Shown: positions 5,738 through 40,729, counted from the stretch's first letter. The stretch is 64,000 bases of DNA from Catajapyx aquilonaris (GCA_000934665.2 JYFJ02001230.1:1-64000), one strand, 5' to 3'. Notes: generated from the letters alone by a model not told the origin. A program made the numbers and translations.

Positions 5738-8044
<2,307 letters not shown>

Positions 8045-18756: not shown

Positions 18757-21700
18757 ATGGTAATGCACCAGACCGCTCAGGCCCTAGCTCGCCCATGCAT
18801 CCACCACCCACACTGCTTGTGCTTACATTTACGCCCAAGTAGCAGTTCCTTGAATTATTTCAGAACATTTCATGAACATGCCATTATATTTCAGGGTATC
18901 AGCCAGAGGGACTTGCGTAGAGCCTTAGGGCAGAGCTCTGTCAATTCCGTCGAGTCGAGCGATGAGTCCATCTTGGATGCCACTTCAATCCGCCCTTATG
19001 CCGTACCCACGGAAATCCCGCAGAACCTGCGTGATATTGCCATCAAAGTGCGTGGTTGTCTCCAACTGTGTTATTGCAGCTGTACCAAGCTGTACTCTCA
19101 GGCACTTATATACACACTACTTTTTTTTGCAGGGAAGTGAGGCTATCAAGGTTGGGGTGAAGCCCCTGAAGGCAGGGGACTCCACGGGTGTGATTGCCCC
19201 TCCTCCCAGCCCTCCACCAGGATGTGACGTAATGCGCCTCCCACCAACACGAGCCCCCAAAAAGCAGTACCTGTATCACCGGGATCGTGTCAGGCAGATG
19301 ATTCTTCCACAAAAGAACAATGGCGACCACCCTGTCATCATCTCCCAAAATGAGTATAAGCGCCTCATGGAGACAGCATCGGTATGCCGTCAGCAACGAT
19401 TTATTATTCATTACAAAGTTTCAAACTTGCCACATGTTCAATGAGAATGTACTCACAAATGCCTCCTGGCCATTTCTGAATGGGGTTATGTTAATAATAT
19501 GCAAACTAATGGTGCTAGCTGCTAGCAGACAGTTTGCAGAAATTGATCCTTGAACACGTGATTGTCTAGAGACTTATTGGGTTTCACTAGCAGGTTACCC
19601 GGCGTTGCCCGGGTATGTTGGGGTGCTGGTAAAGGTAGGGGTACATATACAGTATATTAGGAAGTTTGTTTGTAAAAATTTCCCTTCCATACACTCGAAA
19701 CTCGATATGTCTTAAAATAGGCCTTATAAGTTACAATCACACCCCCACCTTGTTCCATATGTTTGCTCTAAAGAACTTTAGAAATGTACGTACAGCTGCA
19801 TGGTGGAAAATTTTGTTTTCAACACGGAGTAATATTTGTAAATACTGTATTATTTTATTGTATTTACTTTTGTCTGGAAGTCTATTTTCAAATCCCACAA
19901 AATCCCGGAATTACCATAAGATATGAACTCATGTGAGGTGGCCAATTAGCGTAATTGGTGGATGCGTTGAATTTACGGCGATAGTTTAACTTGCTAGGTA
20001 TTGTTGCATAAGAGCATTTAGTAGGGGAGACGAAGTGGTGCTGTGGAAATGTGCCCACAGATCTTAAGGTCCCGGGTTCGATCCCAGCCCGGGGTTCCCC
20101 CCTTCATCTCGTGCAGAGTTGGGTCGTCTCTGGCTTCGTTTCGGGTGGAATCTCCTCAGACTAATCCACCCGGGGGAGTTCACAAAATGTACCCTTTGAG
20201 AATTGCACTTGCACCTTAGTCACTCTGCCCATGGGCCTGGGCGCTACGTCAAAAATGTTCCATCAAGACGAAATAAAGGTTCCCTCCCTGCGGTACGATG
20301 CAGGGAGGTAAATAGCCATATTTTTAAAAAGGCATTTCCATGGGAATGCAAATTGATATGTTGTTATTGATGTAAGAAGTGAGATGATTCGGGAATATGT
20401 GTGTTGTGGGAGTTAGGTTCATTTTCGGAAGTTGAAACATGCGGCGTTAGATTCCTTGGAAAAAGTAACCCCCGATATGCTAATTTAAGGCGGTGTAGGG
20501 GCCTTCCCCTGGATTTCTATAAGGGACAAACAAACTCACAAACAAACTAAAATATAGATTAAGATTTTGCAGATTTTAAAAATTGCTGATAGTTTGTTAT
20601 TACAGGGATATGTTTATTTATTTATTTTTATTTGTTTACACCTTTGCTACCCACCAGGGCAGTAGTTTCCAACCAGAGGGTTTTTTTTTTTTTCAATATC
20701 TGTGTAAATTGAACCATTTTTGCAGCCTTATGTGCAATGTATGTTTTCTGGAAATGGGCCAGTTGTAGAAGGGGCCGGGGGGGGGGGGGGGGTCGCACAT
20801 TTATGGAAACATGTTTAGGGGGTTGAAGTAGGTAAAAGGTTGGAAACCACTGTGCTAGGGGTATAACAGGGATATGTCTCTAAAGCTAGTAGTAATGGGC
20901 GTGTTATACCAAGCAGGATACTACCTGAATACTGTAGAATAATTGAGGTGTTGACATGGGAAAGGAGGCATATGTCACAAAGATAAATGGGTCTGAAAAA
21001 AAAATACTATCCTACATTTAAATGTTAAACTGGTAAACTGCTTTTACTTTGATGTTTCGTGACTTTGTAACAATATCCAACAATAAGAAAGCTTTTGTGT
21101 AAATATCTGCTTCACGGTGTTCTCAAAACTGTTTTTTTTTTCCTCCTAGCCCCTGTAAAAATAATATTTTTGTGACTTACACCCTTTCCCATGTCAATAC
21201 CTCACTTGATCATCAGGTAGGTAAATGGAAGTAAAGATTTACAGCAATAGACCCCGGAAACAACGGACCTCAAAAATCAGTCTGCTATTTCCGAAAATCT
21301 CTTATAGCCGAAGCTGTTATATCCTGAGTAAGCTGTATAGCCTTATTACCAAGAGCTCTTGGTATTACTGTCAGTATCCCAGCACCAAATACTATAATGG
21401 CTAATGTATGACCATGAATAAGTAGCACCTGCAGGTATGGATACACACAAATTAAACAGCTTCACAAACTTTGTTATTTGAAAGTTTCACATTCAAATTT
21501 CTTTTGACATGAATGTGAACTAAGATTTTTGTGTGTATACAGTGATGTACAACTCTCTGCAAGTGTAGAAATACATAAGAAATAGTCAATTTTTAATTAC
21601 GACTGCCAGCGTGTGGTTTAGTGTTATTGGCTAATAAAGGAGCAGGAATATTACAGCTCTACTTTTCCCACTCTACAGGTACTGACTGAGGAAGAACGTC

Positions 21701-23901
21701 GTGCCCTTGAGGAATGGCGCAAGGAGGCAAAAGACAAGATGTATGATCAGAGTCGCAATCGCAAAGAGGAGCTGCAGAACATGGACAAGATTCGCCTGGC
21801 TCAGCACCACTTTGCTGCTTCTGACGTCGCAGAAGAGGATAGAGTGGAGCGACAGGCCACCTTGGACCGGAGCCGGCGCCAGCGCCTGGAAGACACGCAG
21901 GAGATGCGCCAGCTAAATCGTTGTATCTTGAATGCCAAGTGCATGGCTATCCGTCAAGCTCAGATCCAGGAAAAGCAGCTGCTGCAGAAGGAATGGGACA
22001 AAGAGCAACGAAGGATGGACATGCTGATGGAAGTGACTCGGCAGAAGGCCATTGCCCGGCAGCAGAGGGAAGAGGAGGAGAGGAAGGCCAAAGCAGCTGA
22101 GTTTGTGGCTGAAATCAGGTGCCAGCAACTTGAGCTGGAGTTTAAGAAAACTCTGGAGGCTGGAAGAAGGGAGCAGGAGTCAGCCTTCATCCGGAAGCAG
22201 GAGGCCCAACGGATGGAGGATACTATCAAAGACAGAGAAAGACAGGAGAGGAGGAGATTGGCCGTAAAGGAAGAGGCCATCCAAGAGGGAGAGAAAATGA
22301 AGAGGAGGAAGGCAGCACTGAAGGAGCAGGAGAGGCTGGAGAATGCCAAGGTTGGTGCATTACTGGTAGCATTGATATTCTGTCTAGGCTGACCTTGATA
22401 TGAGGAAAATATACAAATTATTTTTGGTTTCTGCCCAAATTCCTGCAGCTTGGTTTTATCATTCCAATGTGCAGATATGGTGTGGAGTCCTCAGCCATAC
22501 CTTAGCAATGTATTATAGGGTCATCCTAAACTGGTTCATACAATTTTATTGATGCTGAGATATTGCTTACAGCAACAATTAAAATTGTGGAAAATAACAT
22601 TAAGCTTATTATGTTGTCATGATGTAGTACTGTACCAAGAGCTCTTGGTAGTACATGTTGTCACTCAGTGAAAGTGTTTTGTTTGAAAGTGACTTGTAAA
22701 TAGCTTGATGATTATTATTTTACACACTTGATGTACCAGTAGTGCATAGTTAGTATACGTATAGTATAATTATAATATTCTTTCTGTGCCATCCACAGGT
22801 GGCTGAGTGGATGCGGCTAAAGGCCGAAAGAGAGGCTGCCATTGAGGCTGAGGCAGATCGGCAGCGCAAGGAGAAGGAACGCCAGGTGGCACGTCTAGGG
22901 ATGATGCAGCAACGTGAGATGGACCTTCAGGCAGAAAGAGATGCCCTTCGTGCCCAACGCATCCAGGAGCAAGTGGAGAGGGCGTGGCGCAAGAAGGAAA
23001 GAGAACAATCTGAGGCCAGGAGGAGGACACAGAAGGATCTGAAGGAAGCCAGAGAGGCACAGGTTAGTGTGCTACAAACAAAAGTTGCGGTTCATTGGTC
23101 AAGTTAATTAGGCAGTGTACACAGGTGAATCTGATTATTCCATCAGGAAGATTACAGTTACTTGTTGATTTCTTAGATCATTAGCATATGTTGCTGATTG
23201 TTGGGGAGGGTTTTAATTTAGCTCACGGATCACTTGCTCTTTGACTCATGTGCATTTGTTACATCGGTTACATTCATTTGTCTTATCTGGTAAACAGTTA
23301 ATTTTAGTTTAACTCATGGGAACAACAACAATTAAACGTCTTACAGATTCGGGTGCGCAATTATTGCCTGGGGCTGGAAGCAAACCGGGAGAGGGAGGAT
23401 TTTATGAGGATCTTGGAGAAGCAGAAGATAGCAGTTGAGGCCGACAAGAGGAAGGAAACAGAAATGCATAGAAGGAAGGACATGTTTGCTAAGGCAATGC
23501 GCCAGCAAATTGTGGAGAAAGCTGACAATTTGCTGGAGGAGAGGAGGCAAATCTTTTTGGATGGGGAAAAGGCTGCCAAGGAGAGGAAAGACAGAGAGCA
23601 AGCCTTGGATGACCTCATGTGCATCAAGCTCCAGGAGCTCAAGTAAGTTTCTGGAAGCATCTGCATATGCTACACCCCAATGAATGTCTTGGAGGGGGTA
23701 TAATTATGCAGGTGTATAGTGCATACCCTGCCAAAATGTTCTCACGACACAATTGGTCGTCATGGATTTGGAAATCTACAGGGTAACCTGCAGTAATACC
23801 ATTTGTATTACAGGGAACTGCAACTCCCCGACAAAGCGATTGTTGAGATCAAGAGGTGCATGAAGAAGGCAGCACAGGAGAATGAGAGGGCTGAATACTG
23901 A
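18757..23901 (+). CDS. CFAP45: Cilia- and flagella-associated protein 45 (CCDC19); exons ATG 18757-18759, 18895-19047, 19133-19381, 21679-22350, 22799-23062, 23347-23642, 23814-23901
   Basis: E/R/K/Q-rich coiled coil with LNRCILNAKCMAIRQAQIQEK and QAERDALRAQRIQEQVERAWRKKE, matching CFAP45 signatures. Splice phases are consistent. The start codon is tentative. Confidence 0.85.
19587..20564 (-). mobile_element. Non-autonomous Helitron (Lep1/HINE-like)
   Basis: Minus strand: 5' TC followed by a (GTTT)n microsatellite, 3' hairpin CCCGGGCAACGCCGGG and terminal CTAG. Inserted between A and T, no TSD. Confidence 0.75.
20020..20331 (+). mobile_element. tRNA-derived SINE nested in the Helitron
   Basis: B box GGTTCGATCCC (20075-20085) in a T-arm-like context. 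3' hairpin CCTCCCTGC...GCAGGGAGG. Possible GCATTT TSD at 20014-20019 and 20332-20337. Confidence 0.6.
20660..20852. mobile_element. hAT (Charlie-like) MITE
   Basis: TIR CAGTAGTTTCCAACC / GGTTGGAAACCACTG. Degenerate 8-bp flanks CACCAGGG / TGCTAGGG. Confidence 0.7.
20945..21203. mobile_element. MITE with GAG...CTC termini and 4-bp AATT-like TSD (Sola-like)
   Basis: TIR GAGGTGTTGACATGGGAAAGG / CCTTTCCCATGTCAATACCTC, flanked by AATT / ACTT. Confidence 0.7.
21242..21335. mobile_element. Short degenerate pogo/Tigger-like MITE
   Basis: TA-CAG...ACCCCGGAAACAACGG at the left end and GCTGTTATATCCTGAGTAAGCTG-TA at the right end. TIR match is weak. Confidence 0.35.
21347..21364. repeat. Palindromic motif TACCAAGAGCTCTTGGTA, copy 2
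   Basis: Perfect 18-bp palindrome. Context TATTA-CCAAGAGCTCTTGG-TATTA. Confidence 0.85.
22633..22650. repeat. Palindromic motif TACCAAGAGCTCTTGGTA, copy 3
   Basis: Perfect 18-bp palindrome. Context TAGTACTGTA-CCAAGAGCTCTTGG-TAGTACATGT. Confidence 0.85.
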
Positions 23902-27800: not shown

Positions 27801-30800
27801 CTAATTTTTTTTTTCTTTCCTATTCATGCTTAGGAAGATTTTTCTGACGAAGTCACGGAAGGACAGGGGAAAATAAAATTCAATGAAAAAGTTACATGCG
27901 TTTAAAGAGTGCTTGGAGCCTCTCAGGCTCCACCTACGTAGTTAAGGGTTAAAATGTTTAATAATGAAATCTATTTTTTGGACAGGGTAACATTGAAGGA
28001 ACTCAAGGCATTCTTTCCACGTGTGAACTGCAAAATTCACATGGCAAAGCTTCGAGAAATATTCCAAGAGGTTGACACAAGGCGTACTGGGGAGCTTGGA
28101 TTTGATGATTTTGCCACACTTTACTGCAATGTTCTCTATGATGATACTGTAAGTTAACGTATCCTGCTAACACCATAATGTTATAAAAATATTTTTATTT
28201 CCTAGCTCTTCAATGAGAATTTCAAGCCATTCTCAGCAAACCAAAAGACTGTCACACTGCAAGAATTCAAATCCTTCCTAGTTCAGGAGCAGCACGACTC
28301 TTTAGGAAATGACGAACGAGATGTGAGCCGCTTTCTACGCGAATACCTTCAAGACCCTGCACGTGATGTTCAGGAGCCTTATCTCACTACTGGAGAGGTT
28401 AGCAAAGCGTAGAAGTAAAAGTAATTCTGTTCTAGAACTGCCCTTCCAAGCGTGATTTTTAAACCTTATTCTGTACATTCACATAAGTACAGCCATGCAT
28501 TATGCTTTCTAATATAATAGTTTTGGTGTGGTAGAAGTATTTGGGACTAATCCATGCATTATGGTTACAATATCAGCTGCATTTTCAAAACAAGTAAACA
28601 TGGGCATAATAATTGTACAAAATGGCATCAGTTTTGCCATGCACAATAATGTTGCAATGCATGAAAAGTAGGGCAGAAATGTATCTAAGTGCCTATACTG
28701 TTCAGATTTGTCGGTGTTTGTAGGTGTTCAGGTTTACCATTATGTTAAGCTTTTGTTAAGCTGCAGTTTAGTTATTTCTCCTCTTCTTCCAATACAGTTC
28801 CTGGGATTCCTATTCTCAAAGCAGAATGAAATTTGGGATCATAGCAATGACCAAGTGACTCAGGACATGAATCATCCTCTGTCCCACTATTGGATTTCTT
28901 CCTCCCACAACACCTACCTGACAGGAGACCAGTTCTCCAGCATGTCTTCCACAGAGGCTTATGCCCGTTGCTTACGTATGGGCTGTCGAAGCGTTGAGCT
29001 GGACTGCTGGGATGGACCGGATGGGATGCCTTTCATCTACCACGGACACACCCTCACCAGCAAGATAAAATTCATGGATGTTGTAAAGACCATCAGGGAG
29101 CATGCCTTCATCACTTCAGAATATCCGCTGGTGCTCTCCATTGAGGACCATTGCTCCCTCCCACAACAGAGGAAGATGGCTCAGGCCTTCCAGGATGTCT
29201 TTGGGGACCTGCTGTTGTCCCAGTCGTTGGACAGGAATGAAAGGCAGCTTCCTTCTCCACATCAGCTCAGGAGAAAAATTTTACTGAAGCACAAAAAGCT
29301 GCCCGAGGGAGTAGATGAGGCATCTCCCCTCCTGAGGAGTGAAGATTGTGAGTGGAAATTTCATTTGAACATATCAAGACACATTCAGTTTGAGACACTA
29401 ACGTGTAAGAAGAGTATTCACAAAGGTTTTTTAAATCAGACCATGAAGTCTACTGAATGCTATACAATACACAGGTGCAATATTTTTGACATTGCATCAG
29501 GGAAAGTTTTACAGTTGGAATACCTGCCTGTTTATTTTCATGCACATAGGTTATTGCTTCATAGTCAGGGAAGAAGCTTTTTGGATGCCCCACATACTGG
29601 TGGATGTATTATGACCTATTCTCATATCTGTATGGAGACAACTTTTTGTCCATTCCCTCACCTATTTGTGTCTGGGAACCATTTATATTGCAAGTGCTTC
29701 AGTGACTACTGCCAAATTCCCATTAGAAAATAGGCATGGTAACATGCAAAAAGTTGCCTACATAAACAGCCCATGAGGAATGTACGTTATTTTTTGGGAA
29801 CTTTTCCCAAAGCATGGAAAGTGTGTTAGTTCTGTAATTAGGAAAGGAATATCTAGTATGGTAATTTAAATCTTGGACCCATTTTCAAAGAGATGCATAA
29901 TTTCATATGTAAATTACCATGAAAGAACAGTTTGTGCTGCATATCTCCTTACTGAAAGAGACTTTTTTTTTGACCTGCCAGTGAACGAGATGGACTTGAG
30001 CAACTCTGTAAAGAATGGGATAATGTACCTGGAGCACCCTGTGGACCATGAGTGGAACCCTCATTATTTCGTCCTGACTCAGGACAAGCTGTTCTACACA
30101 GAGGTGCACAATGAAGAGGAAGGAGAAGCAGAAGAGGAGGGGGAGGAAGGGGAGGGAGCAGCTGGAGGTGGAGGAGGTGGGACCTTCCAGAGGGGGAGGG
30201 AAGGTGTTGCAAATGACGAACTCCACTTCAGTGAGAAATGGTTCCATGGAAAGCTGCAGGGTGGAAGAGAGAAAGCCAAGGAACTGCTCCAGCAGTACAG
30301 CTACCTGGGTGATGGAACTTTTTTAGTGCGAGAGAGCGTGACCTTTGTTGGGGACTACTCCCTCTCCTTCTGGAGACAAGGAAAGGCTAACCACTGCCGG
30401 ATCAGGTGGAAGCCAGAGTGGGGGCAGGTCAAGTATTACCTTACCGAGTCATTCACCTTTGACAGCCTCTACAGTCTCATCATGCACTACAGGACACATC
30501 CTCTAAGGAGTCAAGTGAGTGTAAAAATACTTATCAATTGTAACATTTTCTGGAAACCACAATCATTTTCGTTCTAAAATCAACTGACACAATTAATATT
30601 TTGGAGTGCTACTTTCTCCTGAAATGTATTCTTAGATGAAGCATGTTATCACTTTCAGTAATGACGGCATTAAGCTCACAAACAGGGTGTCTCCTTGATT
30701 TTAGGAATTCTTCATCACTCTTACTGAACCAGTACCCCAACCCCAACGCCATGAGAACAAAGAGTGGTACCATCGTGAGATAAGTCGGACCGAAGCGGAA

Positions 30801-33799
30801 GACATGCTCAAGCGTGTCCCCTTTGATGGTGCTTTTCTAGTCCGTCCCAGTGAAAAGGGACACAGCGCATATGCCATCTCATTCAGGTAGTGTTTAGGCG
30901 CACTTCATATTCCTTCAATGGAGCCTAGTGTATATTATTATTATTATTTTAATAATGTCTCACATATTCCCACTCGTACTTAAAAATCAACAAATAATTT
31001 TAATCATTTGCAAATGTATGCATACTGTTCATCAATTCAAAGGATTTCCCTTCTGCCGATTCCCTTAACAGTGTGAATCAGTTGTAATGTACAGAAAACG
31101 AGAGAATGTTCTGACGTCATCGTTTCTTCCATTGTTGCTTTTTGTTGACACTGTTTACTCATATTGTTCCGTGGAAACCTTGATGACGTCAGATCGTTCT
31201 CTCATTTTCCGTACATTAGATTTCCTCATTTTAGGCCATAAATCATTTAAAAATTCCAAATTACAGAGCTGAGAAGAAAATCAAACACTGTCGGGTGAAG
31301 CTAGATGGGCGCCTGTACGTGCTTGGAACAGCCCAATTTGAGAGCCTGGTGGAATTGGTAGCTTTCTACGAGAAACATCCACTCTACAGGCGCATACGCC
31401 TCAAGTACCCAGTGAATGATGAGGTTATTAGGCGAATGGGAGACCTTCCATATGTTGGAGCTACTCCAGAAACCTGCTACCTTGACCTTAGCTCTAGGGT
31501 AAGTTCAGTTTTATGCTACAAGATAATTATCTTGTGTTGTGCTTCTTGTGTTGCTTTGATGTCAAAAGTTGATTGATATTGATGTTTAATAGCAGAGTGC
31601 AACAGTCACATGCTGAACATGATTTGTTATTATTTTCACAAGCCAAACTGGGGATGTGCTGCCCTACAATGAATATTTTCTAAACAGGTGACCGTGAAGG
31701 CTAAATTTGACTACCAGGCACAACAGGATGACGAGCTGTCTTTTTGCAAGCATGCCATCATTACCAATGTCACAAAGCAGTCTGGTGGGTGGTGGAGGGG
31801 TGACTATGGTGGGAAGAAGAATCACTGGTTCCCTGAAAATTATGTTGAGGAGGTAGAAGTTAGGGAAAATGGCGAGGATGTAAGTTTTGAGTACAGAGAA
31901 GAGAGGAGGGGCAGGCTGAACTGCAATGCTGCCTAATTAGGCTCAAGAAGCCTACGACATCCACTGAAAGGCTCAGAACTTTTTAAAAAGTAGCCTCACC
32001 AGAACAAATTGAAGCCAGCAGCATTGCCGTATGGCCTGGGCATTCTTCTTTGTTTCAGTACATTTCTCACAAGCTTATGCAGTAGTTTGGAACCATTTTA
32101 CAAGAAGGGAAATATGCATGCTATGCAATAACAAATTATGCTAGTGACTGGCATGTCCATGTAGGGAAATTAACGTTGGTGGAGGCTTAGCGCTTCTTGC
32201 ATGGAATATATGACAAGTAAAACTTGAGTTCTTACCCTGCAATTGCATGTTATGCATTGCAGTCTGGTGACTCCTGGCCACTGGGCACACTCCAGAAGGG
32301 GAGTCTGGACATAGTGGGAGCTGTTGTGGAGATGTTCCAGGCTGACCGGCCTTCTCTAGAGTGGACCCTCCAGATCCAATCTCCAACTCAGTGCAACCTC
32401 TTTGTAGTAGCCCTTCGTGCTCGTGAAGATGCTGTGGACTGGCAGGCCAAGATTCGGGAAACAGCGCAGATGGCCTCAGACCGTGAAAACCAACACAAGG
32501 AGATAGAGCGAGAGAAGCGCATTGCCAAGGAGTTGTCCAACCTCATTGTTTACTGTCGCTCAGTAATGTTCAGTATGGACCATGTCTTACAAAATGGTCC
32601 ACTCTTCTATGAGATGAGTTCCTTCTCAGAAACGAAGGCAGAGAAGCTCATCTGCCAGCAGGAGCCCCAATTCTTCCTGCACTACCACGAAGTCCAATTC
32701 AGCCGTGTGTACCCAAAAGGGCAGCGAATTGATTCCTCCAACTACAACCCCATTCCTCCGTGGAATGTGGGTTGCCAGATGATTGCCCTCAACTACCAAA
32801 CTCCAGATCGCCCCATGCAGATCAACCAAGGCAGGTTCCTGGCCAACGGAGGGTGTGGATATGTCCTGAGGCCTCAGTGCATGTTTAAGCCAGGGTATGA
32901 CCCCTATGACCGAACAACATTGGTTGGGGTCGACCCACTGGTGCTTTCAGTGAGAATCATGGGAGGAAGACACCTGGCCCGTACAGGGAGGTCCATGGGA
33001 ATGCTCTCTCCCTTTGTAGAGGTAGAAGTACTTGGAGCAGAGTATGACAATGGGCAGAAGAATGTCACTCCTGTCATATGTGAGTATCTACAGTTCTCAT
33101 GACCAGACCTATGATCTGAGGGGGGAATCATCTAGAATCTAGATCACAGCATGATGCAAGAACTTAAGATTGTTTGTTTGCTAATCAAAATCACGCGTGA
33201 AAAATATGTTATGTGCAATAAATTACTTTTTCCACCTCAGCTGACAATGGCCTGAGTCCAGTGTGGAACGAGACGTGGGACTTCACAGTCTACAACCCAG
33301 AGTTTGCCCTCCTGCGTTTTGTGGTGTTTGATGAGGATGTGTTTGGAGAGTCCCAATTTGTGGGTCAGGCCACATACCCTGTCCCATGCCTGAGGCCAGG
33401 TTACCGCTCTGTGCCTCTTCGCAATGGATTCAGCGAAGAGCTGGAGCTGGCCTCTCTGCTGGTGCACCTAGTGCTGCGCAACCCAAGAGAGGAGGATGAG
33501 GAGATCCGAGCTCTGCGGGACAGGCTGCCTGTCTTGCAGGCCCGGGCAGCACAGAGCCAGGCCCAAGGCAACCAAGCGCATGCACAGGCAGCCAGGCAGC
33601 AGTTCCAGGAGGCAGAGGCACAACTCAGGGGGCTCATGGAGGACAGAGTGTGAGTTGATTTACTTTACTTCTGAACCTACCCAATCAACTTAAAATGGCC
33701 TTGTTTTGTAGGCAAAGGCAACAAAAGCAACCACAACGATGCCCATCAGTGTCGGGGACTTCCAAGAGCACTCCCAGGCCAACATCGCAAAAGAAGTGA
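24839..33799 (+). CDS. PLCG1: Phospholipase C-gamma (small wing); about 13 exons; PH, EF-hand, X, split PH, SH2-SH2-SH3, Y and C2 domains
   Basis: [16 protein letters not shown] and [12 protein letters not shown] (X box), WFHGKL...FLVRES (nSH2), [15 protein letters not shown]...WWRGDYG (SH3), [15 protein letters not shown] (Y box), [10 protein letters not shown] (C2). Junctions are GT-AG. Confidence 0.97.
25324..25652. mobile_element. Palindromic fold-back MITE in PLC-gamma intron 1
   Basis: Arms ATTGGATATGTTGTAGCCCAGAC.GTCCTG.TCAATGTTAGATAG... are inverted around a perfect central hairpin TAATATGGGGAGTAG-TTA-CTACTCCCCATATTA (25486-25518). Confidence 0.85.
27478..27948. mobile_element. piggyBac-like MITE
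   Basis: TTAA TSDs at 27474-27477 and 27949-27952. TIR CCCTTAACTACGTAGGTGG / CCACCTACGTAGTTAAGGG. The inner TIR extends through GGAGCCTGAGAGGCTCCAA. Confidence 0.88.
31085..31218. mobile_element. Small MITE (~134 bp)
   Basis: ~36 bp TIR TAATGTACAGAAAACGAGAGAATGTTCTGACGTCATC / GATGACGTCAGATCGTTCTCTCATTTTCCGTACATTA. Confidence 0.7.
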
Positions 33800-35703
33800 A
33801 AGGAGCAAAATAACTTAAATCTGTCATAGCTGTCTCACACTTCGAGGTTTCATTTGTCAGGTGGGAAATTGTCATGATGGCATACATGAAGTGAAACCAT
33901 TTTGAATGGAACCAAATGCTACCCTTGATATAATTGGGATGATATTGCTGCACTCATAAATACAGTGTACTCCCTCTATCAATGAATTGCAAGGATTCAA
34001 ATTTTAGTTAGCGCTAAGAAATTTTACCACATTTTTGAAAGTGTACTTTTTACCTACCGGTACTTATCTATTCTCTGCACATAGCAAAATTTTATTTGGA
34101 AATTCTAACCCACTTCCAGACCACCTAGAAAACTGAAAATTGCAGTGCTGACGACTCATTAGCTCAATCCCCAGGGAAATATCCCAGAACTGCAATTTTT
34201 TTGCATTAGGACTCCCTTTTTCAGATTTTGGTAGATAACACTCTCTAACCTCCAGTGCCATCTGTTACGTATGGGAACTGCTAATAGACTTCTGTGCTGG
34301 AATGTGATTAAGGCAGAAAAATAAGTAGTCACCCACAGAGAATCCACACTTGGAATGTACTTGGGCAGCTTGTGTCACATGCGAGTGAAAAGATAGTGTA
34401 AGACTGAATAATTCCCCATTGACAGCAACCCTAATGCAGCAAATATGGCTGTCCCCACTTGGCATTGTCTCCTCCTCCCACCTCAGACTCCTAAACCCGA
34501 TATGAATTGATTTGTTGATTGGTTACGCAACTATGGCTATCTGAAGATAGAAAGGTGGGACAGATGGAAGCAGAAACGAATAGAAAAAAGGAGAGAGGAA
34601 AGACTGGCATCTGCCTTAGACTGTCACCTACCCAAAGCCTGTCCCACTTGGGAGACCCTGCTATTAGACAAAGACTTGATCACCAGATATGGAAATCCCA
34701 TCCAAAAGTTTCTATTACATCCCAAGTAAATGCCTGTTGACATGTGTAGAAAAAAAGTCAGGGACCAATTCTGTTGCACGGCAGTGTTCCCCTACCCTCC
34801 ATCATCGAAGTAATTTTAACACTATTTATGTGGTATTTCTGGCAGTGATTAATCCTGTCTCCAAGAGGCCTCTTATGTTGGCTAAAGATGGAGTACACTG
34901 TATTGAGTTGAGTAGCATCAATGGTGCCCTTCATGTCACAAACATGCAGACCTGCTACATAGCCTAGACCCAAGAGTCTGCTTACCTAAGGTTTGGAGTT
35001 TGGGGACCACGTCAGATATGATGACTACAACTGCAGGAAACTTCCATCTGTGACCAGCTGCTCTCTTGATGTCCTCGATAGGCCTGTATGCACCAATTGA
35101 GCTGCTGGCAACCAGTTCTGGTGGGGAGACAGCCGGTTTTGGCACATGCAAATGGGGGAAGAATAGAAGAAATCTGTGAATTTGGAAATTTTCTCCACCC
35201 AAACAAAAAGCATTCAGGGGCAGCCAATGGTTGGATATTATTTTCACTGACGACTTCCTTCCATTCTTTCCCTGCAGGTCTTAAAACAGCTAATTAAATG
35301 TTCTTGCAAGCAGCCAGAAGTGGCGCATGCAGACATCAGTCTCCAAGCCAAGCTCAGTATGAGGCAGCTACCTTCTTGCAACTAAAAACGCACACTCCCC
35401 TCCACCTTGTCAGAAAGGAATGAACAAAGCTAGCGGTAATTGTTCCACCAGAATGACCTTGTGGGACTTCATATCACTGTAATATTTAGCATGTTATGAT
35501 TCTAATGTAAGATAATATCTCCTCTCCCTATTATCATTTCCATAAAGAGTATTAGACACAACTTCCTTCACTGTGCCTTGGCACTATATTTTATCCGAAA
35601 AATGTAACTGATGACAATATATTTATAATGACAATCTACCAATCACACTGAAGTTTTCTTACTACGAACAGTCCTTCCACTCGCCATAACCAGACCAGTT
35701 GCT

Positions 35704-36369
35704 TCACTTCTGGGCACTGTCCTTATCATAGCCCATCAGTCGGTTGAAATCTGCAGGGCTCTTAAAGTACTGCTCCATCAGGACCATCTTTGCCCCCTCT
35801 GCTGTGCTATACGTTGACATTTGCCATGGTATCACACCCCAACCCTTTTCTTTTCGCACCTCCCCAGCTCTTGTCATCACATGCCGCTTCATGGCTGGAA
35901 CTAGGCTGTAGAAAACAGCCCGATACTCGTTGCCATGACGGTACATCCTAATGGGGTACCGCATCATCAAGCGCGTCACTGCAATGCAAAGTCCTGCATA
36001 TGCTGACAGCAAGATGGCAGTCTCTGTTGGGGTTCCAGCCATGTAATCCACTTTTTCCTCCTTTGTTACTGTTGGTGCCTCATTGTTGCTCGGCGGAAAG
36101 GGGAAGTACTCGGGGTAAAACTTCTCAGCAGCAAGAATCCCCATGAGCACCAGTGATACGTATGTCAAGCCTTGACTGAAGGCAAAATATAATCCCATGG
36201 GTGCTTGGTATACCATCTGGTAGTCAGGGGGGAGTCGGTCTTTCAGTCTGATAGCATTCAACCTGGCATTGTTCCGAAACAGTGCGTTAGTAGCCGCCTC
36301 CGAAGACTTGCGGAAGAACTGTCCCAACAGCGGGCGAGGGCGGCACAAGCAACGCAACAGGAGCGACAT
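35704..36369 (-). CDS. Mitochondrial inner-membrane protein of the TMEM70/TMEM186/TMEM223 family (TMEM70-like), intronless, 221 aa
   Basis: Arg/Leu-rich N-terminal presequence and two hydrophobic segments. Motifs MVYQAPM, RYPIRMY..NEYRAVFY and F..PADFNRLMGYDK resemble TMEM70 (LIYTGNM, GYVIRLY..TYKAITY, FPNREDYIHLMGYDK). Confidence 0.75.
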   Translation of the reverse strand: MSLLLRCLCRPRPLLGQFFRKSSEAATNALFRNNARLNAIRLKDRLPPDYQMVYQAPMGLYFAFSQGLTYVSLVLMGILAAEKFYPEYFPFPPSNNEAPTVTKEEKVDYMAGTPTETAILLSAYAGLCIAVTRLMMRYPIRMYRHGNEYRAVFYSLVPAMKRHVMTRAGEVRKEKGWGVIPWQMSTYSTAEGAKMVLMEQYFKSPADFNRLMGYDKDSAQK

Positions 36370-36374
36370 CCTTC

Positions 36375-36557
36375 CTACTTGAGGTCGTCGTCGTCGTAGA
36401 AGTCGGTATCAAATTCATTGAAGAAGTCAGAATGGACAGCCTTCTCATTGGCGGCCAGATCCATAAGCAGACCTGTGGAGGACCCAGTCTCATCCATATC
36501 CATGTAGGTCCCTGCACCCTCTGGGAACATCTCATCCACCACCAAGCTTGGCTTCAT
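36375..36557 (-). CDS. COPS9: COP9 signalosome subunit 9 (CSNAP/MYEOV2), 60 aa, single coding exon
   Basis: [60 protein letters not shown] closely matches the COPS9 consensus. Confidence 0.95.
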
Positions 36558-39500
36558 GGTTGCACCTGCAGTTGGATGGTCTCCCGTGTTGTCTCTCTCC
36601 ACTGAAGGATTGTCCTACAGGAAGGTTCAAGTTATTTTTAAGAGGCGGCCATCATGAATGTGCAATGATTCATCTTCAGCGTGACTGTGAACTGCTGAGT
36701 GATGAACCAAGTGTTCGTCAACCTCTTTTACCTCCAGCGAACCAGTCAGCCTCGCTCTTCGTTCCAGCAGGGTTCCAGGCAATTCTGCAAAAATGTGCTC
36801 AACCCGACCACACCAGACTGGTCGCCATAGGGATCAGAACAGCCGCTGCTCCCCTGCAGCGCTGGCATCACTTGATTCAACTGCGACTTTTTTTCTGCTC
36901 CTAGTAGTTCGCCACGCCACCACTTCCCTCGCTCCAGTCAAAAGTGGCCTCTGGAATATTACTGTTGCATTAACATCTACTGTTCTAACCGCGGTTCTAA
37001 CACATGCTGCCAATAATTAGCTATGAATTAATTGGCAACAATAGCAAGGAAAAATTCTCCGATCATGCTCTACCTTCAATGCTGCAACTGTGAATATTTT
37101 AATATCGTAATTAAGAATGAACTTGAAAATTATGCAAATTTATTGGCTTGCTATTAATTGCAGGCACAAATTACACAATTCAAGAGCGTAGAATCTGTAA
37201 CTTCAAAGGTGCATTGCGTTTCTCGAGTAGCTACGTACACAAATAAAGCCACGCTCTCTCGCTATTGCTTTCCGCATCATAAGATATAGCCGTGATTAAT
37301 TTCAGAGACATTTTGCCAGGTAAGACCAAGCCTCTTTATGCTTCTGATGAGGACGATATATCACCTAACCGCCTACATATATATATATAGCAGGGTCTCC
37401 TGGTGTTTGCACAAAAGCAGACGTTACATGCCTGTAGCGTGTCAAGTAGACTAGAGCAAGCACAGTTGAGCGAAACTTTACACTCCGCTGCAGATCATGA
37501 ACGTAATCCCCTTCAAAAAAAAAAAACTCGCTTGTAAAAGTTCATAAAGCAGGTCCCGGCAAAGTTCAAGTTAGCGTGAATCAAAACGGAGCCTAAGCAT
37601 AATTATAAGTTTAATATGATGCCCACATTCTGTAACTTCATGATGACTTTTTGCCCTTTAGCCTTGTGTAATATCTCCACAAATTTATTTGGAATATTTG
37701 GTGATAGACTAGGGTTACGCTTAAATTGTGGTTGTGTTTTATTTCATTTATTGTCATCTATTTATGTGTAATATTTTATGACGCTTCAATTGCACCTCTT
37801 GATAGGGAAAATAATGTCTTGATGGTTTGTTTGCTTTCTTGCTACATTTTACATGCGTACGCAATTAACAACAAAGTCTTAAAATGTCCAGTGTCCACCC
37901 CTATAGTTAATCGTCTCATCGCTTCCGAAGCACGTTCCCCGTAATCTTGACGCCGCCGCAGGAACTGACTTTCCATGACTTTGACTCCTGGTTGGCAGAT
38001 GCATTGACCTCACTATTTGATTGTATAGCATCGTGTCTCACAGTCAGACGCATATTCAATAACGGCTGTCTAGAAATTGAAACTATATTCCATACAATAT
38101 TGAGGAAATAACAATGGCATTCGATACCCTTTCCATTCATATTATGATGAACCTGAATTTTTGGAGGGAAAAGGAGAAGCCTTTGTAAAGCACCCTACGT
38201 AAATATCTGCGATATTTATACGACACCTTCCCACACAAGCACCAGGTGATTTTATGCGCCTGGGTGTTACGCTGAGTGTTGCATATTTGGCAGGATGATG
38301 ATTTTTTCTTTTTTTCAGAAATTAGATTTTTTGGCATATTCTCACTATAGAAAACTTGTGGCAACAATTTGGATTTTGATCGCTGGTTTTGTAATGGCCT
38401 ACTAAATAATGATCAGTATGGAGAAAGTTGTAGCCGGGCACTTTCGTTCCAAAATTAACCATGCAATCAACAGCAAACGCTGGCGAGGAATGGAGGAGAA
38501 AATTAAATAATAAAATTTAATAACTCCGACCTCGCACGTGTAATGGCATATTTTTTTCAGGCGATACAATGATACACGGCAAATATGATGAAGCCTGCAG
38601 ACTTCGTCTGACTGAAGTAGTTGGTATCAAGTTGTGGCAGTGTTACATTTTTTTTTACATCAGCCGGAAACTTACCGGGATGTAGAAAATATGAGTTTTG
38701 ACTTGTAATTTCTTACTTATTAGGCCATATTCCATCGAGGTTTATTATAATTATGACAGTCGCAATGACAAGGACATGTCTAACAACGTACAATTTACAT
38801 CACATTATTAACTTAGATGCAGTAATGTGACAGCGAAGTTGCGATTATGGAAATGAGTTTGGGACACCAGGAACAATAATTAGCTTATACCTATATATAG
38901 GGTAAGTCATACGCCTGAATAGGATTTTTCATTGTGTTTTTATGAAATTACTGCGAAAAAGATCAGAGAGTGTAGGTGGCAACTAGCCATAATCTGATTC
39001 GATACTCGCATTACAACTGATCCAAAAAAAAAAACAGTCGCTTCTAAAACATTGTAGTCTTTCCACGCCTACCTTCTTGTATATTTTAGGCTTTAAGTAC
39101 AGTGTTAGGACCTTCCTTCATATTTTATTCCCTTGTCAAGACAAGCAAGTGACATTGATAGTATTTTACAGAGAGGCAGCTTTCTCCTGTCTTCTCTCTT
39201 TTAAAATACTAAGCAGAAGCCAACGCACTCCTGCATGTAAAGTGATGATACTATAAGAATGAATATTTCAATCTAGGAATCTCAGGACAACATGCAATAA
39301 CATCGCATTCACATCAATGGAATCTTCTACTCGAATAAAGATGCAATATGTAGAATAATACTGTATGGTATAATTCGAGTGGAATTAAATTCGCGGTTAA
39401 GTTATTCCATGACTTATTATCTCCCTCCACATAATGTCTGAACCACGCCCACTCTCATCCGATAGCCGAGGCTAACACATTGTAAGCCCTTTTCTCGTCC

Positions 39501-40729
39501 TTCTTCTCGTTGCCATGTGTTCCAAGTACCTTATATTGCTATCCGATCTGGTGTCTTTCTCGTGAAGTCTCGGCAGTGTACATAAACGGATCTTTTAAAT
39601 CCACACACCGTGAAAGTACATCCTTGTCAAGCAAGCCTAATAACCAGCCCAAACTCATGCACCATGAAATTAATACGATTAGATAAAAAAAACGAAGCTG
39701 ATATGCGCTCGATTCCATATGTTAACCCAACCCAATCTGCAACGATGTACCCCTTCCATATCGATTCGAAAAACATCTGCAGCATTGTAAAGATTTTTTT
39801 TCCCCCGGGAAGACATAGACACAACCCGCGCACGTATGTTGTTCAAGAAAACAGCCATTTTTTCCCCTGTATTAATTATACTTTCCTTCCTCATCGCTTC
39901 CCACCAGAGTAAATTTCACCACAGGGGAACCCGTTGCAAAGTTCTTCTTAAATCATATTAATATGGACGTTATACTTCCAAAGCAGGGGTTGAATCAATC
40001 TATCTTTGGACAAGAGGTTCATTAGAGGCCTAGCAGGAGGTCTCTTTAAAAGAAATGGCTCTAGCGTCACGCATTGATCTGCAAAGTTTATTTGGGCAAC
40101 AGGTGGCGAGAGAGAGGACTAGAGGACTTGGTTACCACCCCGCTTTAAAATCCGCTTTGAAAATGACCGCATGTCTGCCTCTCAGAAAATGTCAACAGAT
40201 TCACAAAGCTGTGTCAAATACAGAGTGTCAACTGTATATAAAAGACGGTTTGAATTTATTTGCAGTACATTCGTTTGCATGTGACAATCTCTGTGTCTAT
40301 TAATGGCAACGTTATATCCGAAAAACTACAACCGCTAAAGGCCATTAACAGGTACCTGTACGGTAATGTTAACATGTATCATTACTTCACTCCACATTAT
40401 TTTACATGGCGTCCATTATGGACTGCGGCTTCTGTAAAACATGACTCTTTTTTCTCCCCGCTTTTAATCACTTCAATTAGGCTAATGCAGTGTGAAGTTG
40501 CATTGCATATCTGCTGATGTGCCGTCCAACTGGACCGTTCCGCAACTAGAGATAAGTCCTACAAATTACATGGGCCCCATTCCCAGAAGACAACACGCGC
40601 TGGGACAAATCCGACCTTGTGACAACATCGTGATTGACACGGGATCAAAACTATTGTAAATTGTTATTCCTAACAAGTCCATCCGAAATGTATGGCCCGA
40701 TGACTTTTGACCTCACCCCCTCACGAAAT

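What the first reader, a model, noticed from the sequence alone, without database searches (positions are those of the whole stretch)
35704..36557. Operon-like dicistron: COPS9 stop, 5 nt, then the ATG of a TMEM70-like mitochondrial protein
Seen: on the minus strand the COPS9 ORF ends ...AAG TAG, followed by GAAGG and then the ATG of a 221-aa ORF in another frame. There is no room for a poly(A) signal or promoter between them, and both ORFs are intronless. Known: COPS9 is the small acidic signalosome subunit, and TMEM70-family proteins are mitochondrial OXPHOS assembly factors. Inference: one mRNA encodes two unrelated proteins. COPS9 contains several internal ATGs, so leaky scanning is unlikely. 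Termination-reinitiation is more plausible, or an alternative acceptor that uses the stop codon's AG (CTCAAGTAG|GAAGGATG). A conserved protein would then act as a functional uORF coupling CSN and mitochondrial biogenesis.
Basis: partly seen in the sequence, partly recalled or inferred. Interest (0 to 1): 0.78.

Follow-up and report, generated by a model that had tools for sequence, protein, structure and literature searches.

The report
COPS9 and mitochondrial-type gene share transcript
In this arthropod, the tiny signalosome subunit COPS9 and a distant relative of the TMEM70 mitochondrial assembly factors sit 5 bases apart in one exon and are covered by one RNA contig, a new example of the two-genes-on-one-message layout already common in flies.

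Summary
On the minus strand a 60-codon COPS9 ORF (36557-36375, Pfam MYEOV2, E 1.4e-29) stops at TAG. GAAGG follows, then the ATG of a 221-codon ORF (36369-35704).

An RNA-derived contig of run X1 runs from a spliced 5' leader exon through both ORFs with no break and no mismatch. COPS9's ATG is the first AUG on it. No AATAAA or ATTAAA lies anywhere between COPS9 and 400 nt past the second stop.

The second protein is real. It is 58% identical over its full length to one other protein and has 125 relatives, the named ones insect "uncharacterized" proteins. It has a presequence-like N-terminus, a two-helix hairpin and a confident fold. It is only a distant relative of TMEM70/186/223: Pfam gives 12.5 bits against a cut-off of 22.

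The pairing is not general. None of 73 loci with COPS9 relatives has such an ORF nearby. This COPS9 also lacks both introns seen in many relatives.

Eight AUGs between the two starts argue against leaky scanning. Short-range reinitiation and an undetected monocistronic isoform remain open. No evidence links the two proteins functionally. Verdict: a new member of a known kind, of moderate interest.

The parts
36732..36813 (-). 5' leader exon 1. The 5' end is only the end of the RNA contig, not a mapped TSS. It contains no ATG.
   Evidence: joint 36613->36731 with 82 nt on the far side (record 5); no ATG upstream of the COPS9 ATG in the exon1+exon2 model.
36615..36731 (-). 117-nt GT..AG intron in the 5' leader
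   Evidence: table 5: skips 117, CT..AC on the + strand, cut +1; donor ctggag|GTAAAAGA, acceptor ...CTTCCTGTAG|gacaat, py 0.65.
36558..36614 (-). 57-nt leader part of exon 2, without ATG. The COPS9 start context is gcaaccATGa (A at -3).
36375..36557 (-). COPS9/CSNAP coding sequence, 60 codons plus TAG. It is intronless and has the acidic F/D-rich C-terminus.
   Evidence: ORF. (PF15004, E 1.4e-29). (165 relatives, all 120 listed carrying PF15004; 13 invariant columns kept).
36370..36374 (-). 5-nt intercistronic spacer GAAGG
35704..36369 (-). Second cistron of 221 codons plus TGA. It has a presequence-like N-terminus, two hydrophobic helices (about 60-81 and 117-137) and a C-terminal beta domain. 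It is an arthropod family distantly related to TMEM70/TMEM186/TMEM223.
35590..35632 (-). Cluster of variant poly(A)-signal-like hexamers after the second stop: TATAAA starting at 35627, AATATA at 35623 and 35590, GATAAA at 35595. This is a candidate 3' end only, not mapped.
   Evidence: no AATAAA or ATTAAA anywhere in 36560-35300 on this strand.
33712..33799 (+). Last coding exon of the convergent PLC-gamma gene, with its stop at about 33797-33799. Its 3' UTR runs towards the dicistron, and the same RNA contig covers both.
   Evidence: joint 33649->33712; record 5 lies on 33773-36613. (translation). (PLC-gamma identity).

Best explanation
This is a genuine, lineage-specific dicistronic transcription unit of an arthropod. 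One promoter upstream of about 36813 drives a transcript with three parts: a short leader exon, a 117-nt intron, and one large exon. That exon carries COPS9 (the ninth, acidic subunit of the COP9 signalosome), 5 nt of spacer, and a 221-codon gene for a probable mitochondrial inner-membrane protein of an arthropod family distantly related to TMEM70/186/223.

Shown:
- The anatomy.
- The identity and intactness of both ORFs.
- An RNA-derived contig running unbroken from the spliced leader across both ORFs.
- COPS9's AUG as the first AUG on that contig.
- No canonical poly(A) hexamer before the end of the second ORF.
- Absence of the pairing in other COPS9 loci.

Inferred origin: an intronless COPS9 copy came to lie in the 5' leader of a resident gene that is an old neighbour of PLC-gamma.

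Inferred translation: most ribosomes translate COPS9. Some post-termination 40S subunits stay on the mRNA at UAG and start again at the AUG 5 nt downstream (short-range termination-reinitiation). This would give a low, COPS9-dependent output of the second protein.

My odds:
- A processed mRNA carrying both ORFs exists: about 0.8.
- Reinitiation is the main route to the second protein: about 0.4.
- An undetected monocistronic isoform is the main route: about 0.4.
For: -: 5-nt spacer, different frames, so no space for a promoter or poly(A) site between the ORFs.
- COPS9 matches PF15004 at E 1.4e-29.
- run X1 behaves as RNA. All 8 joints are GT..AG (or the complement), and nothing is laid on 37015-40620. 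Record 5 (2923 nt) lies on 33773-36613 with 0 mismatches and 0 gaps, then skips 117 nt to 82 further nt upstream.
- no AUG before the COPS9 AUG on that model. Eight AUGs lie between the two starts. No AATAAA or ATTAAA in 36560-35300. The first TATAAA/AATATA/GATAAA hexamers lie 77-114 nt after the second stop.
- the second ORF is 58% identical and 76% similar over 221 of 222 aa to P0001, with the same Met start.
- 125 relatives.
- presequence-like N-terminus (10 R/K against 2 D/E in the first 45 residues), two hydrophobic helices, AF2 pLDDT 86.1 and pTM 0.77.
- 0 of 73 COPS9 loci have a relative of the second ORF, so the arrangement is derived.
- 33 of 73 loci show a donor right after codon 47, and 23 HSPs end at codon 23-24. 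The window has neither intron.
- intronless COPS9 copies exist in other animal genomic contigs.
- the second gene's relatives and PLC-gamma sit on a contig or chromosome of identical length in 4 of 4 insects where both were listed, including a 134,410-nt Agrilus scaffold.
- PMC4528330 (passages read): 159 dicistronic pairs are annotated in D. melanogaster.
Against: - A de Bruijn contig is not a single molecule. Overlapping transcripts would assemble to the same contig: a COPS9 mRNA ending further down plus a second mRNA starting inside COPS9. The tool itself warns of this.
- No raw reads, 5' ends, poly(A) sites or ribosome footprints were available.
- X1 is not on record as RNA.
- Reinitiation after a 60-codon ORF with only 5 nt to reacquire initiator tRNA is considered inefficient in the standard scanning model (my knowledge, not tested).
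- No calicivirus-type UGGGA motif lies in the leader, COPS9 or spacer. The junction is no more structured than shuffles (z +0.2 to +1.4).
- In flies only 45 of 159 dicistronic loci lack monocistronic alternatives for both genes (PMC4528330), so an alternative isoform is a priori likely.
- No 3' UTR or poly(A) remnant of a COPS9 retrocopy is left (5-nt spacer), so the retroposition origin is unproven.
- Whether P0001's species has the same arrangement could not be checked.
Confidence: 0.5

Rival explanations
1. The two genes share DNA and perhaps a promoter, but the second protein is made from its own monocistronic mRNA. This could arise from an internal transcription start inside the last about 48 nt of COPS9 (after the last internal ATG at 36418). 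It could also arise from splicing of the leader exon to an AG at 36378, 36375 or 36371. The dicistronic RNA would then serve mainly for COPS9.
For: - Contigs cannot separate overlapping transcripts.
- In D. melanogaster 114 of 159 dicistronic loci have a monocistronic alternative for at least one gene (PMC4528330, passages).
- The AG of the stop codon sits in GTAG|G. Two of the 8 RNA-supported acceptors in the window also read GTAG.
- Eight upstream AUGs make translation from the long form inefficient.
Against: - No joint other than 36613->36731 was reported on this gene, though contigs drop rare variants.
- The candidate acceptors have polypyrimidine fractions of 0.41-0.47, at or below the weakest of 8 real acceptors (0.47-0.82).
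- No loose end near 36370-36420 is among the 6 of 10 loose ends shown.
- No promoter evidence could be obtained.
Confidence: 0.33
2. The pair is an operon in the nematode or tunicate sense. A polycistronic precursor is resolved by spliced-leader trans-splicing at TAG|G, giving two capped monocistronic mRNAs.
For: - The stop codon's AG directly before the downstream leader resembles the spacer-less operons of tunicates (my knowledge, not tested).
- Four of the 10 loose ends were not shown.
Against: - The neighbouring PLC-gamma is most similar to insect proteins (60-63%; chelicerates 56-58%, an ostracod 53%). Spliced-leader trans-splicing is not known in insects (my knowledge).
- No loose end at the junction is among those shown.
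- COPS9 would lack any poly(A) signal.
Confidence: 0.03
3. The downstream ORF is translated by internal ribosome entry on the dicistronic mRNA.
For: FlyBase curators considered IRES use possibly common among fly dicistronic genes, because most do not fit scanning rules (PMC4528330, passages).
Against: - The only sequence available for such an element is the COPS9 coding region itself, which is constrained as protein.
- Folding of 81-201 nt around the junction is not more stable than shuffles (z +0.18 to +1.44).
- Cellular IRES claims are widely disputed (my knowledge).
Confidence: 0.08
4. The second ORF is not expressed as protein, either as a decaying gene or as a chance ORF in the COPS9 3' UTR.
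For: No direct translation evidence was obtained.
Against: - The reading frame of 221 codons is intact.
- It is 58% identical and 76% similar end to end to P0001, with a conserved start.
- It has 125 relatives and a confident fold, pLDDT 86.
Confidence: 0.03

Closest known systems
Dicistronic genes of Drosophila melanogaster as annotated by FlyBase (159 pairs; PMC4528330, passages read)
   Same: - A processed arthropod mRNA carries two non-overlapping, mostly unrelated coding sequences.
- The downstream start cannot be reached by simple scanning.
- Alternative monocistronic isoforms are often present.
   Different: - This particular pair was not found in print. COPS9 or MYEOV2 together with bi-, di- or any '-cistronic' gave 0 papers. 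The main supplementary list of the FlyBase paper could not be searched.
- The upstream cistron here is a deeply conserved housekeeping subunit, and the spacer is only 5 nt.
sloth1/sloth2 bicistronic gene of Drosophila (PMC9681215, passages read)
   Same: - Two ORFs lie on one transcript with a 5-bp intervening sequence.
- The products act in mitochondria (complex III there; a probable OXPHOS-assembly-type protein here).
   Different: - sloth1 and sloth2 are paralogous small peptides. The downstream one is reached by leaky scanning past a weak Kozak context.
- Here the proteins are unrelated, the first AUG has A at -3, and 8 further AUGs intervene. Leaky scanning therefore does not fit.
Viral termination-reinitiation (calicivirus VP1/VP2, influenza B M1/BM2; recalled, not read here)
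   Same: The stop of the upstream ORF and the start of the downstream ORF lie within a few nucleotides. Downstream synthesis would depend on ribosomes that have just terminated.
   Different: - No UGGGA (TURBS motif 1) lies in the leader, COPS9 or spacer.
- No unusual structure is predicted.
- This is a cellular mRNA, and the mechanism is untested.
TMEM70/TMEM186/TMEM223 family (PF06979; bioRxiv 10.1101/697185, passages read)
   Same: - Asymmetric hairpin: a short N-terminal matrix part, two transmembrane helices and a C-terminal tail of about 85-100 aa.
- The Pfam alignment falls on the C-terminal half of the profile.
- The nearest ESM Atlas clusters carry these names.
   Different: - The score is below Pfam's cut-off (12.5 against 22 bits).
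- Only 3 of 125 relatives pass.
- Which of the three paralogues, if any, it is orthologous to is unresolved.
- The named relatives are all annotated 'uncharacterized'.
Polycistronic nuclear genes of green algae (PMC7896298, PMC11291117; abstracts in the search listing only)
   Same: A single capped mRNA encodes two or more unrelated proteins.
   Different: There leaky scanning is the reported mechanism. The AUG-rich COPS9 ORF here speaks against that.

Membership tests
COPS9 / CSNAP (Pfam PF15004 MYEOV2) | Full-length match to the family profile above the curated cut-off | tested here: met
   102.7 bits against a cut-off of 27, E 1.4e-29, residues 1-58 on profile 1-57 of 57.
COPS9 / CSNAP (Pfam PF15004 MYEOV2) | Small size (about 57-60 aa) with an acidic Phe/Asp-rich C-terminus. 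The papers read say CSN9 incorporates into the complex by binding CSN3, CSN5 and CSN6 and that conservation concentrates in this Asp/Phe-rich end (Rozen 2015, as cited in PMC6399477 and PMC4860701, passages). | tested here: met
   60 aa, ending ...[17 protein letters not shown]. All 13 invariant and 20 near-invariant columns of 31 sequences are kept.
COPS9 / CSNAP (Pfam PF15004 MYEOV2) | Stoichiometric incorporation into the COP9 signalosome | not testable with these tools
   Needs biochemistry.
TMEM70/TMEM186/TMEM223 (Pfam PF06979) | Match to the family profile at or above the curated cut-off | tested here: not met
   12.5 bits against 22, E 0.15 (residues 122-214 on profile 63-157 of 157). 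I therefore call it a probable distant relative, not a filed member.
TMEM70/TMEM186/TMEM223 (Pfam PF06979) | Homology by transitive links to accepted members | tested here: inconclusive
   One search gives 125 relatives. PF06979 is at or above the cut-off in 3 of the 125 (P0120 22.3, P0032 24.9, P0095 25.6 bits). It is just below in 3 more (P0001, P0017, P0037). These come (38 scanned at E<=0.01; 87 scanned at E<=0.001). No other family recurs. In one search the nearest ESM Atlas clusters are auto-named TMEM186, TMEM70-family and TMEM223 (scores 0.96-0.94), but the recognition value of 2144 is below the tool's 2300 mark.
TMEM70/TMEM186/TMEM223 (Pfam PF06979) | Asymmetric hairpin topology: N-terminal presequence, two TM helices and a longer C-terminal matrix domain (10.1101/697185) | tested here: met
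   10 R/K against 2 D/E in the first 45 residues; hydrophobic segments at about 60-81 and 117-137; helices 59-84 and 114-137, followed by a beta domain at 139-196, pLDDT 86.
TMEM70/TMEM186/TMEM223 (Pfam PF06979) | Mitochondrial inner-membrane location and a role in OXPHOS assembly | not testable with these tools
   There is only indirect support. The whole-length fold matches are accessory chains of ciliate complexes I and IV. Whether those chains belong to PF06979 was not tested. A profile search of PDB sequences found nothing at E<=1.
Dicistronic mRNA (FlyBase sense) | One processed transcript contains both complete coding sequences | tested here: inconclusive
   one RNA-derived contig bridges leader exon, COPS9, spacer and second ORF with 0 mismatches. 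A contig does not prove a single molecule.
Dicistronic mRNA (FlyBase sense) | Both ORFs are conserved protein-coding genes | tested here: met
   (COPS9). (second ORF).
Dicistronic mRNA (FlyBase sense) | The downstream ORF is translated from the dicistronic form | not testable with these tools
   Needs ribosome profiling or reporters.
TURBS-type termination-reinitiation | Stop and restart codons within a few nucleotides | tested here: met
   UAG, 5 nt, AUG.
TURBS-type termination-reinitiation | Upstream UGGGA motif complementary to 18S rRNA (feature recalled) | tested here: not met
   no TGGGA in 36614-36370, and a single TGGG at 36486. It may work like reinitiation but is not a TURBS-type element.
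Spliced-leader operon | Non-genomic leader joined at the downstream gene's acceptor | tested here: inconclusive
   none of the 6 loose ends shown lies near 36374, but 4 were not shown. Contigs drop rare forms.

The most novel reading that the evidence does not exclude
The second protein can be made only by ribosomes that have just finished COPS9. That would be a cellular, TURBS-independent termination-reinitiation event after a 60-codon, AUG-rich ORF with a 5-nt spacer. It would tie the output of a mitochondrial assembly-type factor to translation of a signalosome subunit, created recently when an intronless COPS9 copy was captured in another gene's leader.
Probability: 0.25. Interest if true: 0.65.

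Novelty: new member of a known kind. Interest (0 to 1): 0.4.

Why it matters
Dicistronic mRNAs are common in flies, but how the second ORF is translated is mostly unknown. This locus is an unusually clean natural test case.

- The first cistron is a deeply conserved 60-codon protein with a good start context.
- Eight AUGs block leaky scanning.
- The restart codon lies 5 nt after the stop.
- The arrangement seems young, being absent from all other COPS9 loci examined. The ancestral (separate) and derived (fused) states could therefore be compared.

If reinitiation is shown, it would extend coupled termination-reinitiation, known from viruses, to an ordinary animal mRNA. If an internal start is found, the locus is an ordinary case of overlapping transcription units.

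The finding also flags a widespread arthropod family of 'uncharacterized' proteins as probable TMEM70-superfamily members.

Tried and rejected
- RNA runs: no RNA holder is listed. The single holder X1 is of unknown kind. I treat it as RNA-derived only because of its intron-skipping contigs.
- Parts of the stretch without cover are not used as evidence.
- Whole-genome search for a second COPS9 or other family members: no genome is held for this window. Within the 64 kb each gene is single-copy.
- Same arrangement in P0001's species: its DNA could not be fetched. No COPS9 hit had a Logan contig of 1205 nt among the 120 of 165 listed. This is uninformative.
- Earlier findings of the scan: nothing on this genome, this sequence or COPS9.
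- FlyBase supplementary list of polycistronic genes: 12 files searched for CSN, signalosome, TMEM, MYEOV and 'small wing' with 0 hits. File 1 could not be searched, so a fly precedent is not excluded.
- PDB sequence search with the family profile: 0 hits at E<=1.
- The bacterial-type promoter/terminator scan is irrelevant for a eukaryote and was ignored.
- Literature on Tetrahymena chains and TMEM70: nothing useful.
- Readthrough or a fusion protein is rejected. The ORFs are 188 nt out of register, that is, in different frames.
- The 82-aa +1-frame ORF 36535-36287 is treated as a by-product of the COPS9 sequence. Similar overlapping ORFs occur in L017, L018 and L020.

Full report
**Observation**

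On the minus strand a 60-codon ORF runs 36557-36375 and ends ...CTC AAG TAG. Five bases (GAAGG) follow. An ATG at 36369 then opens a 221-codon ORF that ends with TGA at 35704. The two ORFs are in different frames, so readthrough cannot fuse them.

**First cistron**

The 60-aa product is COPS9/CSNAP.
- Pfam PF15004 (MYEOV2) scores 102.7 bits against a cut-off of 27, E 1.4e-29, over the whole profile.
- A word-indexed search found 165 relatives. All 120 listed carry PF15004.
- In an alignment with 30 of them it is 66-76% identical. It keeps all 13 invariant columns and the acidic Phe/Asp-rich C-terminus.
- The papers read say CSN9 joins the complex by binding CSN3, CSN5 and CSN6, and that conservation concentrates in this C-terminal end (Rozen 2015, as cited in PMC6399477 and PMC4860701; passages read).

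**Second cistron**

The direct Pfam hit to TMEM70/TMEM186/TMEM223 (PF06979) is below threshold, at 12.5 bits against 22, E 0.15. The protein is nevertheless real.
- One protein (P0001, 222 aa) is 58% identical and 76% similar from the same Met to the end.
- A full HMMER scan of 1.84 billion representatives gives 125 relatives at E<=1e-3, of which 35 are at E<=1e-10.
- Twenty of these were looked up. The nine that carry names are insect proteins labelled 'uncharacterized', 'hypothetical' or 'unnamed'. They come from Coleoptera, Hemiptera, Hymenoptera, Diptera and Orthoptera.

Its link to the TMEM70 superfamily rests on several weaker lines.
- PF06979 reaches its cut-off in 3 of the 125 relatives and is just under it in 3 more. 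No other family recurs (38 scanned at E<=0.01; 87 scanned at E<=0.001).
- The nearest ESM Atlas clusters are arthropod clusters auto-named TMEM186, TMEM70-family and TMEM223 (0.96-0.94). The recognition value is below the tool's comfort mark.
- The sequence has a basic, acid-poor N-terminus (10 R/K against 2 D/E in 45 residues) and two hydrophobic segments at about 60-81 and 117-137.
- An AlphaFold2 model built on 86 family members is confident (pLDDT 86.1, pTM 0.77). It shows a helical hairpin followed by a beta domain.
- This is the asymmetric hairpin described for TMEM70/186/223 (10.1101/697185, passages).

Fold searches point the same way.
- Foldseek's only hits at E<=0.01 are accessory chains of Tetrahymena complexes IV and I.

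I therefore call it a probable mitochondrial inner-membrane protein and a distant relative of the TMEM70 superfamily. The paralogue is unresolved. It is not a formal Pfam member.

**Transcript evidence**

One public run (X1, kind not on record) holds the stretch. Its contigs behave as RNA.
- All 8 joints on the 18-kb stretch are GT..AG or the complement.
- Nothing is laid on 37015-40620.

Record 5 (2923 nt) lies on 33773-36613 with no mismatch or gap. It then skips 117 nt (36615-36731, GT..AG on the minus strand) to a further 82 nt (about 36732-36813). One RNA-derived contig thus joins a spliced leader exon, COPS9, the spacer and the whole second ORF.

On this model several things follow.
- No AUG precedes the COPS9 AUG, whose context is gcaaccAUGa.
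- Eight AUGs lie between the two starts. Four are in the COPS9 frame. Four are in the +1 frame, and their ORF overruns the second start.
- No AATAAA or ATTAAA occurs anywhere from COPS9 to 400 nt past the second stop.
- Variant hexamers (TATAAA, AATATA, GATAAA) cluster 77-114 nt after that stop.

The lower part of the contig (33773 to about 35600) is explained by the convergent PLC-gamma gene. Its last coding exon starts at 33712 and its stop is near 33797.

One caveat is important. A contig does not prove a single molecule, and overlapping transcripts would give the same contig.

**Is the pairing general?**

No. A scan of metagenome contigs with a COPS9 alignment returned 73 loci.
- A profile of the second-cistron family (126 sequences) found nothing in any ORF of at least 50 aa in these loci. 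There were 0 hits at E<=1e-3, and the best E was 0.54 with filters off.
- I picked 15 transcript-like contigs. Fourteen have a complete COPS9 ORF near the 5' end, and none is followed by such an ORF.

The arrangement is therefore lineage-specific. Whether P0001's species shares it could not be tested.

**Origin (inference)**

- In the genomic loci of relatives the COPS9 coding sequence is split. Thirty-three of 73 loci have a GGT/GGC donor directly after codon 47, and 23 HSPs end at codon 23-24. Barth et al. also note its 'very small exon sizes' (PMC4860701). The window's copy has neither intron.
- Intronless COPS9 copies with a conserved 3' UTR-like tail also occur in genomic-size contigs of other animals, beside intron-bearing copies. 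Retrocopies of this gene therefore arise readily.
- Relatives of the second gene and PLC-gamma sit on a contig or chromosome of identical length in 4 of 4 insects where both were listed, including one 134,410-nt scaffold. For COPS9 and PLC-gamma this holds in only 1 of 4.
- This suggests that the second gene is the old resident next to PLC-gamma and that COPS9 is the newcomer in its leader.
- Against a simple retroposition, no 3' UTR or poly(A) remnant remains in the 5-nt spacer.

**Host**

The PLC-gamma exon is 60-63% identical to insect proteins, 56-58% to chelicerate ones and 53% to an ostracod one. The window thus comes from an arthropod without a close relative in the database. That makes spliced-leader trans-splicing unlikely (my knowledge: it is not known in insects).

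**Mechanism**

- Leaky scanning is effectively excluded by the 8 intervening AUGs and the A at -3 of the first start.
- No UGGGA motif is present. The junction is not more structured than shuffled controls (z +0.18 to +1.44). There is thus no sign of a TURBS-like or IRES-like element.
No such joint was reported.
- This leaves two live options with about equal odds. One is short-range termination-reinitiation on the dicistronic mRNA. The other is an undetected monocistronic isoform that starts or splices inside the last about 48 nt of COPS9.
- Fly precedent cuts both ways. D. melanogaster has 159 annotated dicistronic pairs (2.5% of genes share a transcript), but only 45 lack monocistronic alternatives for both genes (PMC4528330).
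- The closest described layout is sloth1/sloth2, also with a 5-bp spacer. There leaky scanning past a weak Kozak context was shown (PMC9681215).

**Novelty**

The kind is well known in arthropods. This pair was not found in print. COPS9 with 'bicistronic', COPS9 with 'dicistronic', and MYEOV2 with any '-cistronic' each gave 0 papers. The FlyBase master list could not be searched.

There is no evidence that the two proteins are functionally linked. The 'CSN-mitochondria coupling' idea remains speculation.

**Verdict**

This is a new member of a known kind, with interest of about 0.4. Its main value is as a clean natural substrate for testing reinitiation in animals.

Noticed in passing
window 28000-33799 (+): PLC-gamma ('small wing' type) gene with 7 RNA-supported GT..AG introns of 57-400 nt. 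It carries PI-PLC-Y and C2 domains. It converges on the dicistron, and one RNA contig (33773-36613) covers both 3' regions, so the 3' UTRs probably overlap or abut.
   Followed up: partly
L005, L006, L012-L014, L016 versus L024-L029 (metagenome loci): Intronless COPS9 copies with a shared 3' UTR-like tail (one of them, L016, lacking the start) occur in genomic-size contigs. Intron-bearing COPS9 genes (exons about 1.9 kb apart) also occur. This looks like processed retrocopies of COPS9 in other animals.
   Followed up: partly
L011:131-1514: A transcript-like contig has COPS9 followed 146 nt later by a 351-codon repetitive ORF (MSDKSPLSDKST...). It could be another COPS9-led dicistron or just a low-complexity 3' UTR ORF.
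   Followed up: no
(contig lengths): Relatives of the 221-aa protein and PLC-gamma share a contig or chromosome of identical length in Agrilus (134,410 nt), Nilaparvata, Eretmocerus and Anabrus. This hints at old microsynteny between the two genes in insects.
   Followed up: partly
33 of the 73 metagenome loci (e.g. L026, L038, L048, L059): The COPS9 intron after codon 47 often begins with GC rather than GT (ggcaag...). This is a recurrent GC-AG donor at a conserved position.
   Followed up: no
window 34527-34566: Three RNA contigs break away from the window sequence here (loose ends on both sides), inside the shared 3' UTR region. This could be a repeat, an alternative 3' end or an allele.
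   Followed up: no
window 6891-7433 (-) and 10029-10433 (-): Exons of two trypsin-family serine protease genes (PF00089, E 4.6e-26 and 1.4e-9).
   Followed up: partly
window 21622-23646 (+) and 60739-61233 (-): A trichohyalin-plectin-homology coiled-coil gene (PF13868, E 1.1e-19) and a RabGAP-TBC domain gene (PF00566, E 3.7e-19).
   Followed up: partly
window 36746-36868 (-): A 40-codon ATG ORF lies just upstream of and overlapping leader exon 1. It would be a uORF only if transcription starts further upstream than the RNA contig's end (about 36813).
   Followed up: no
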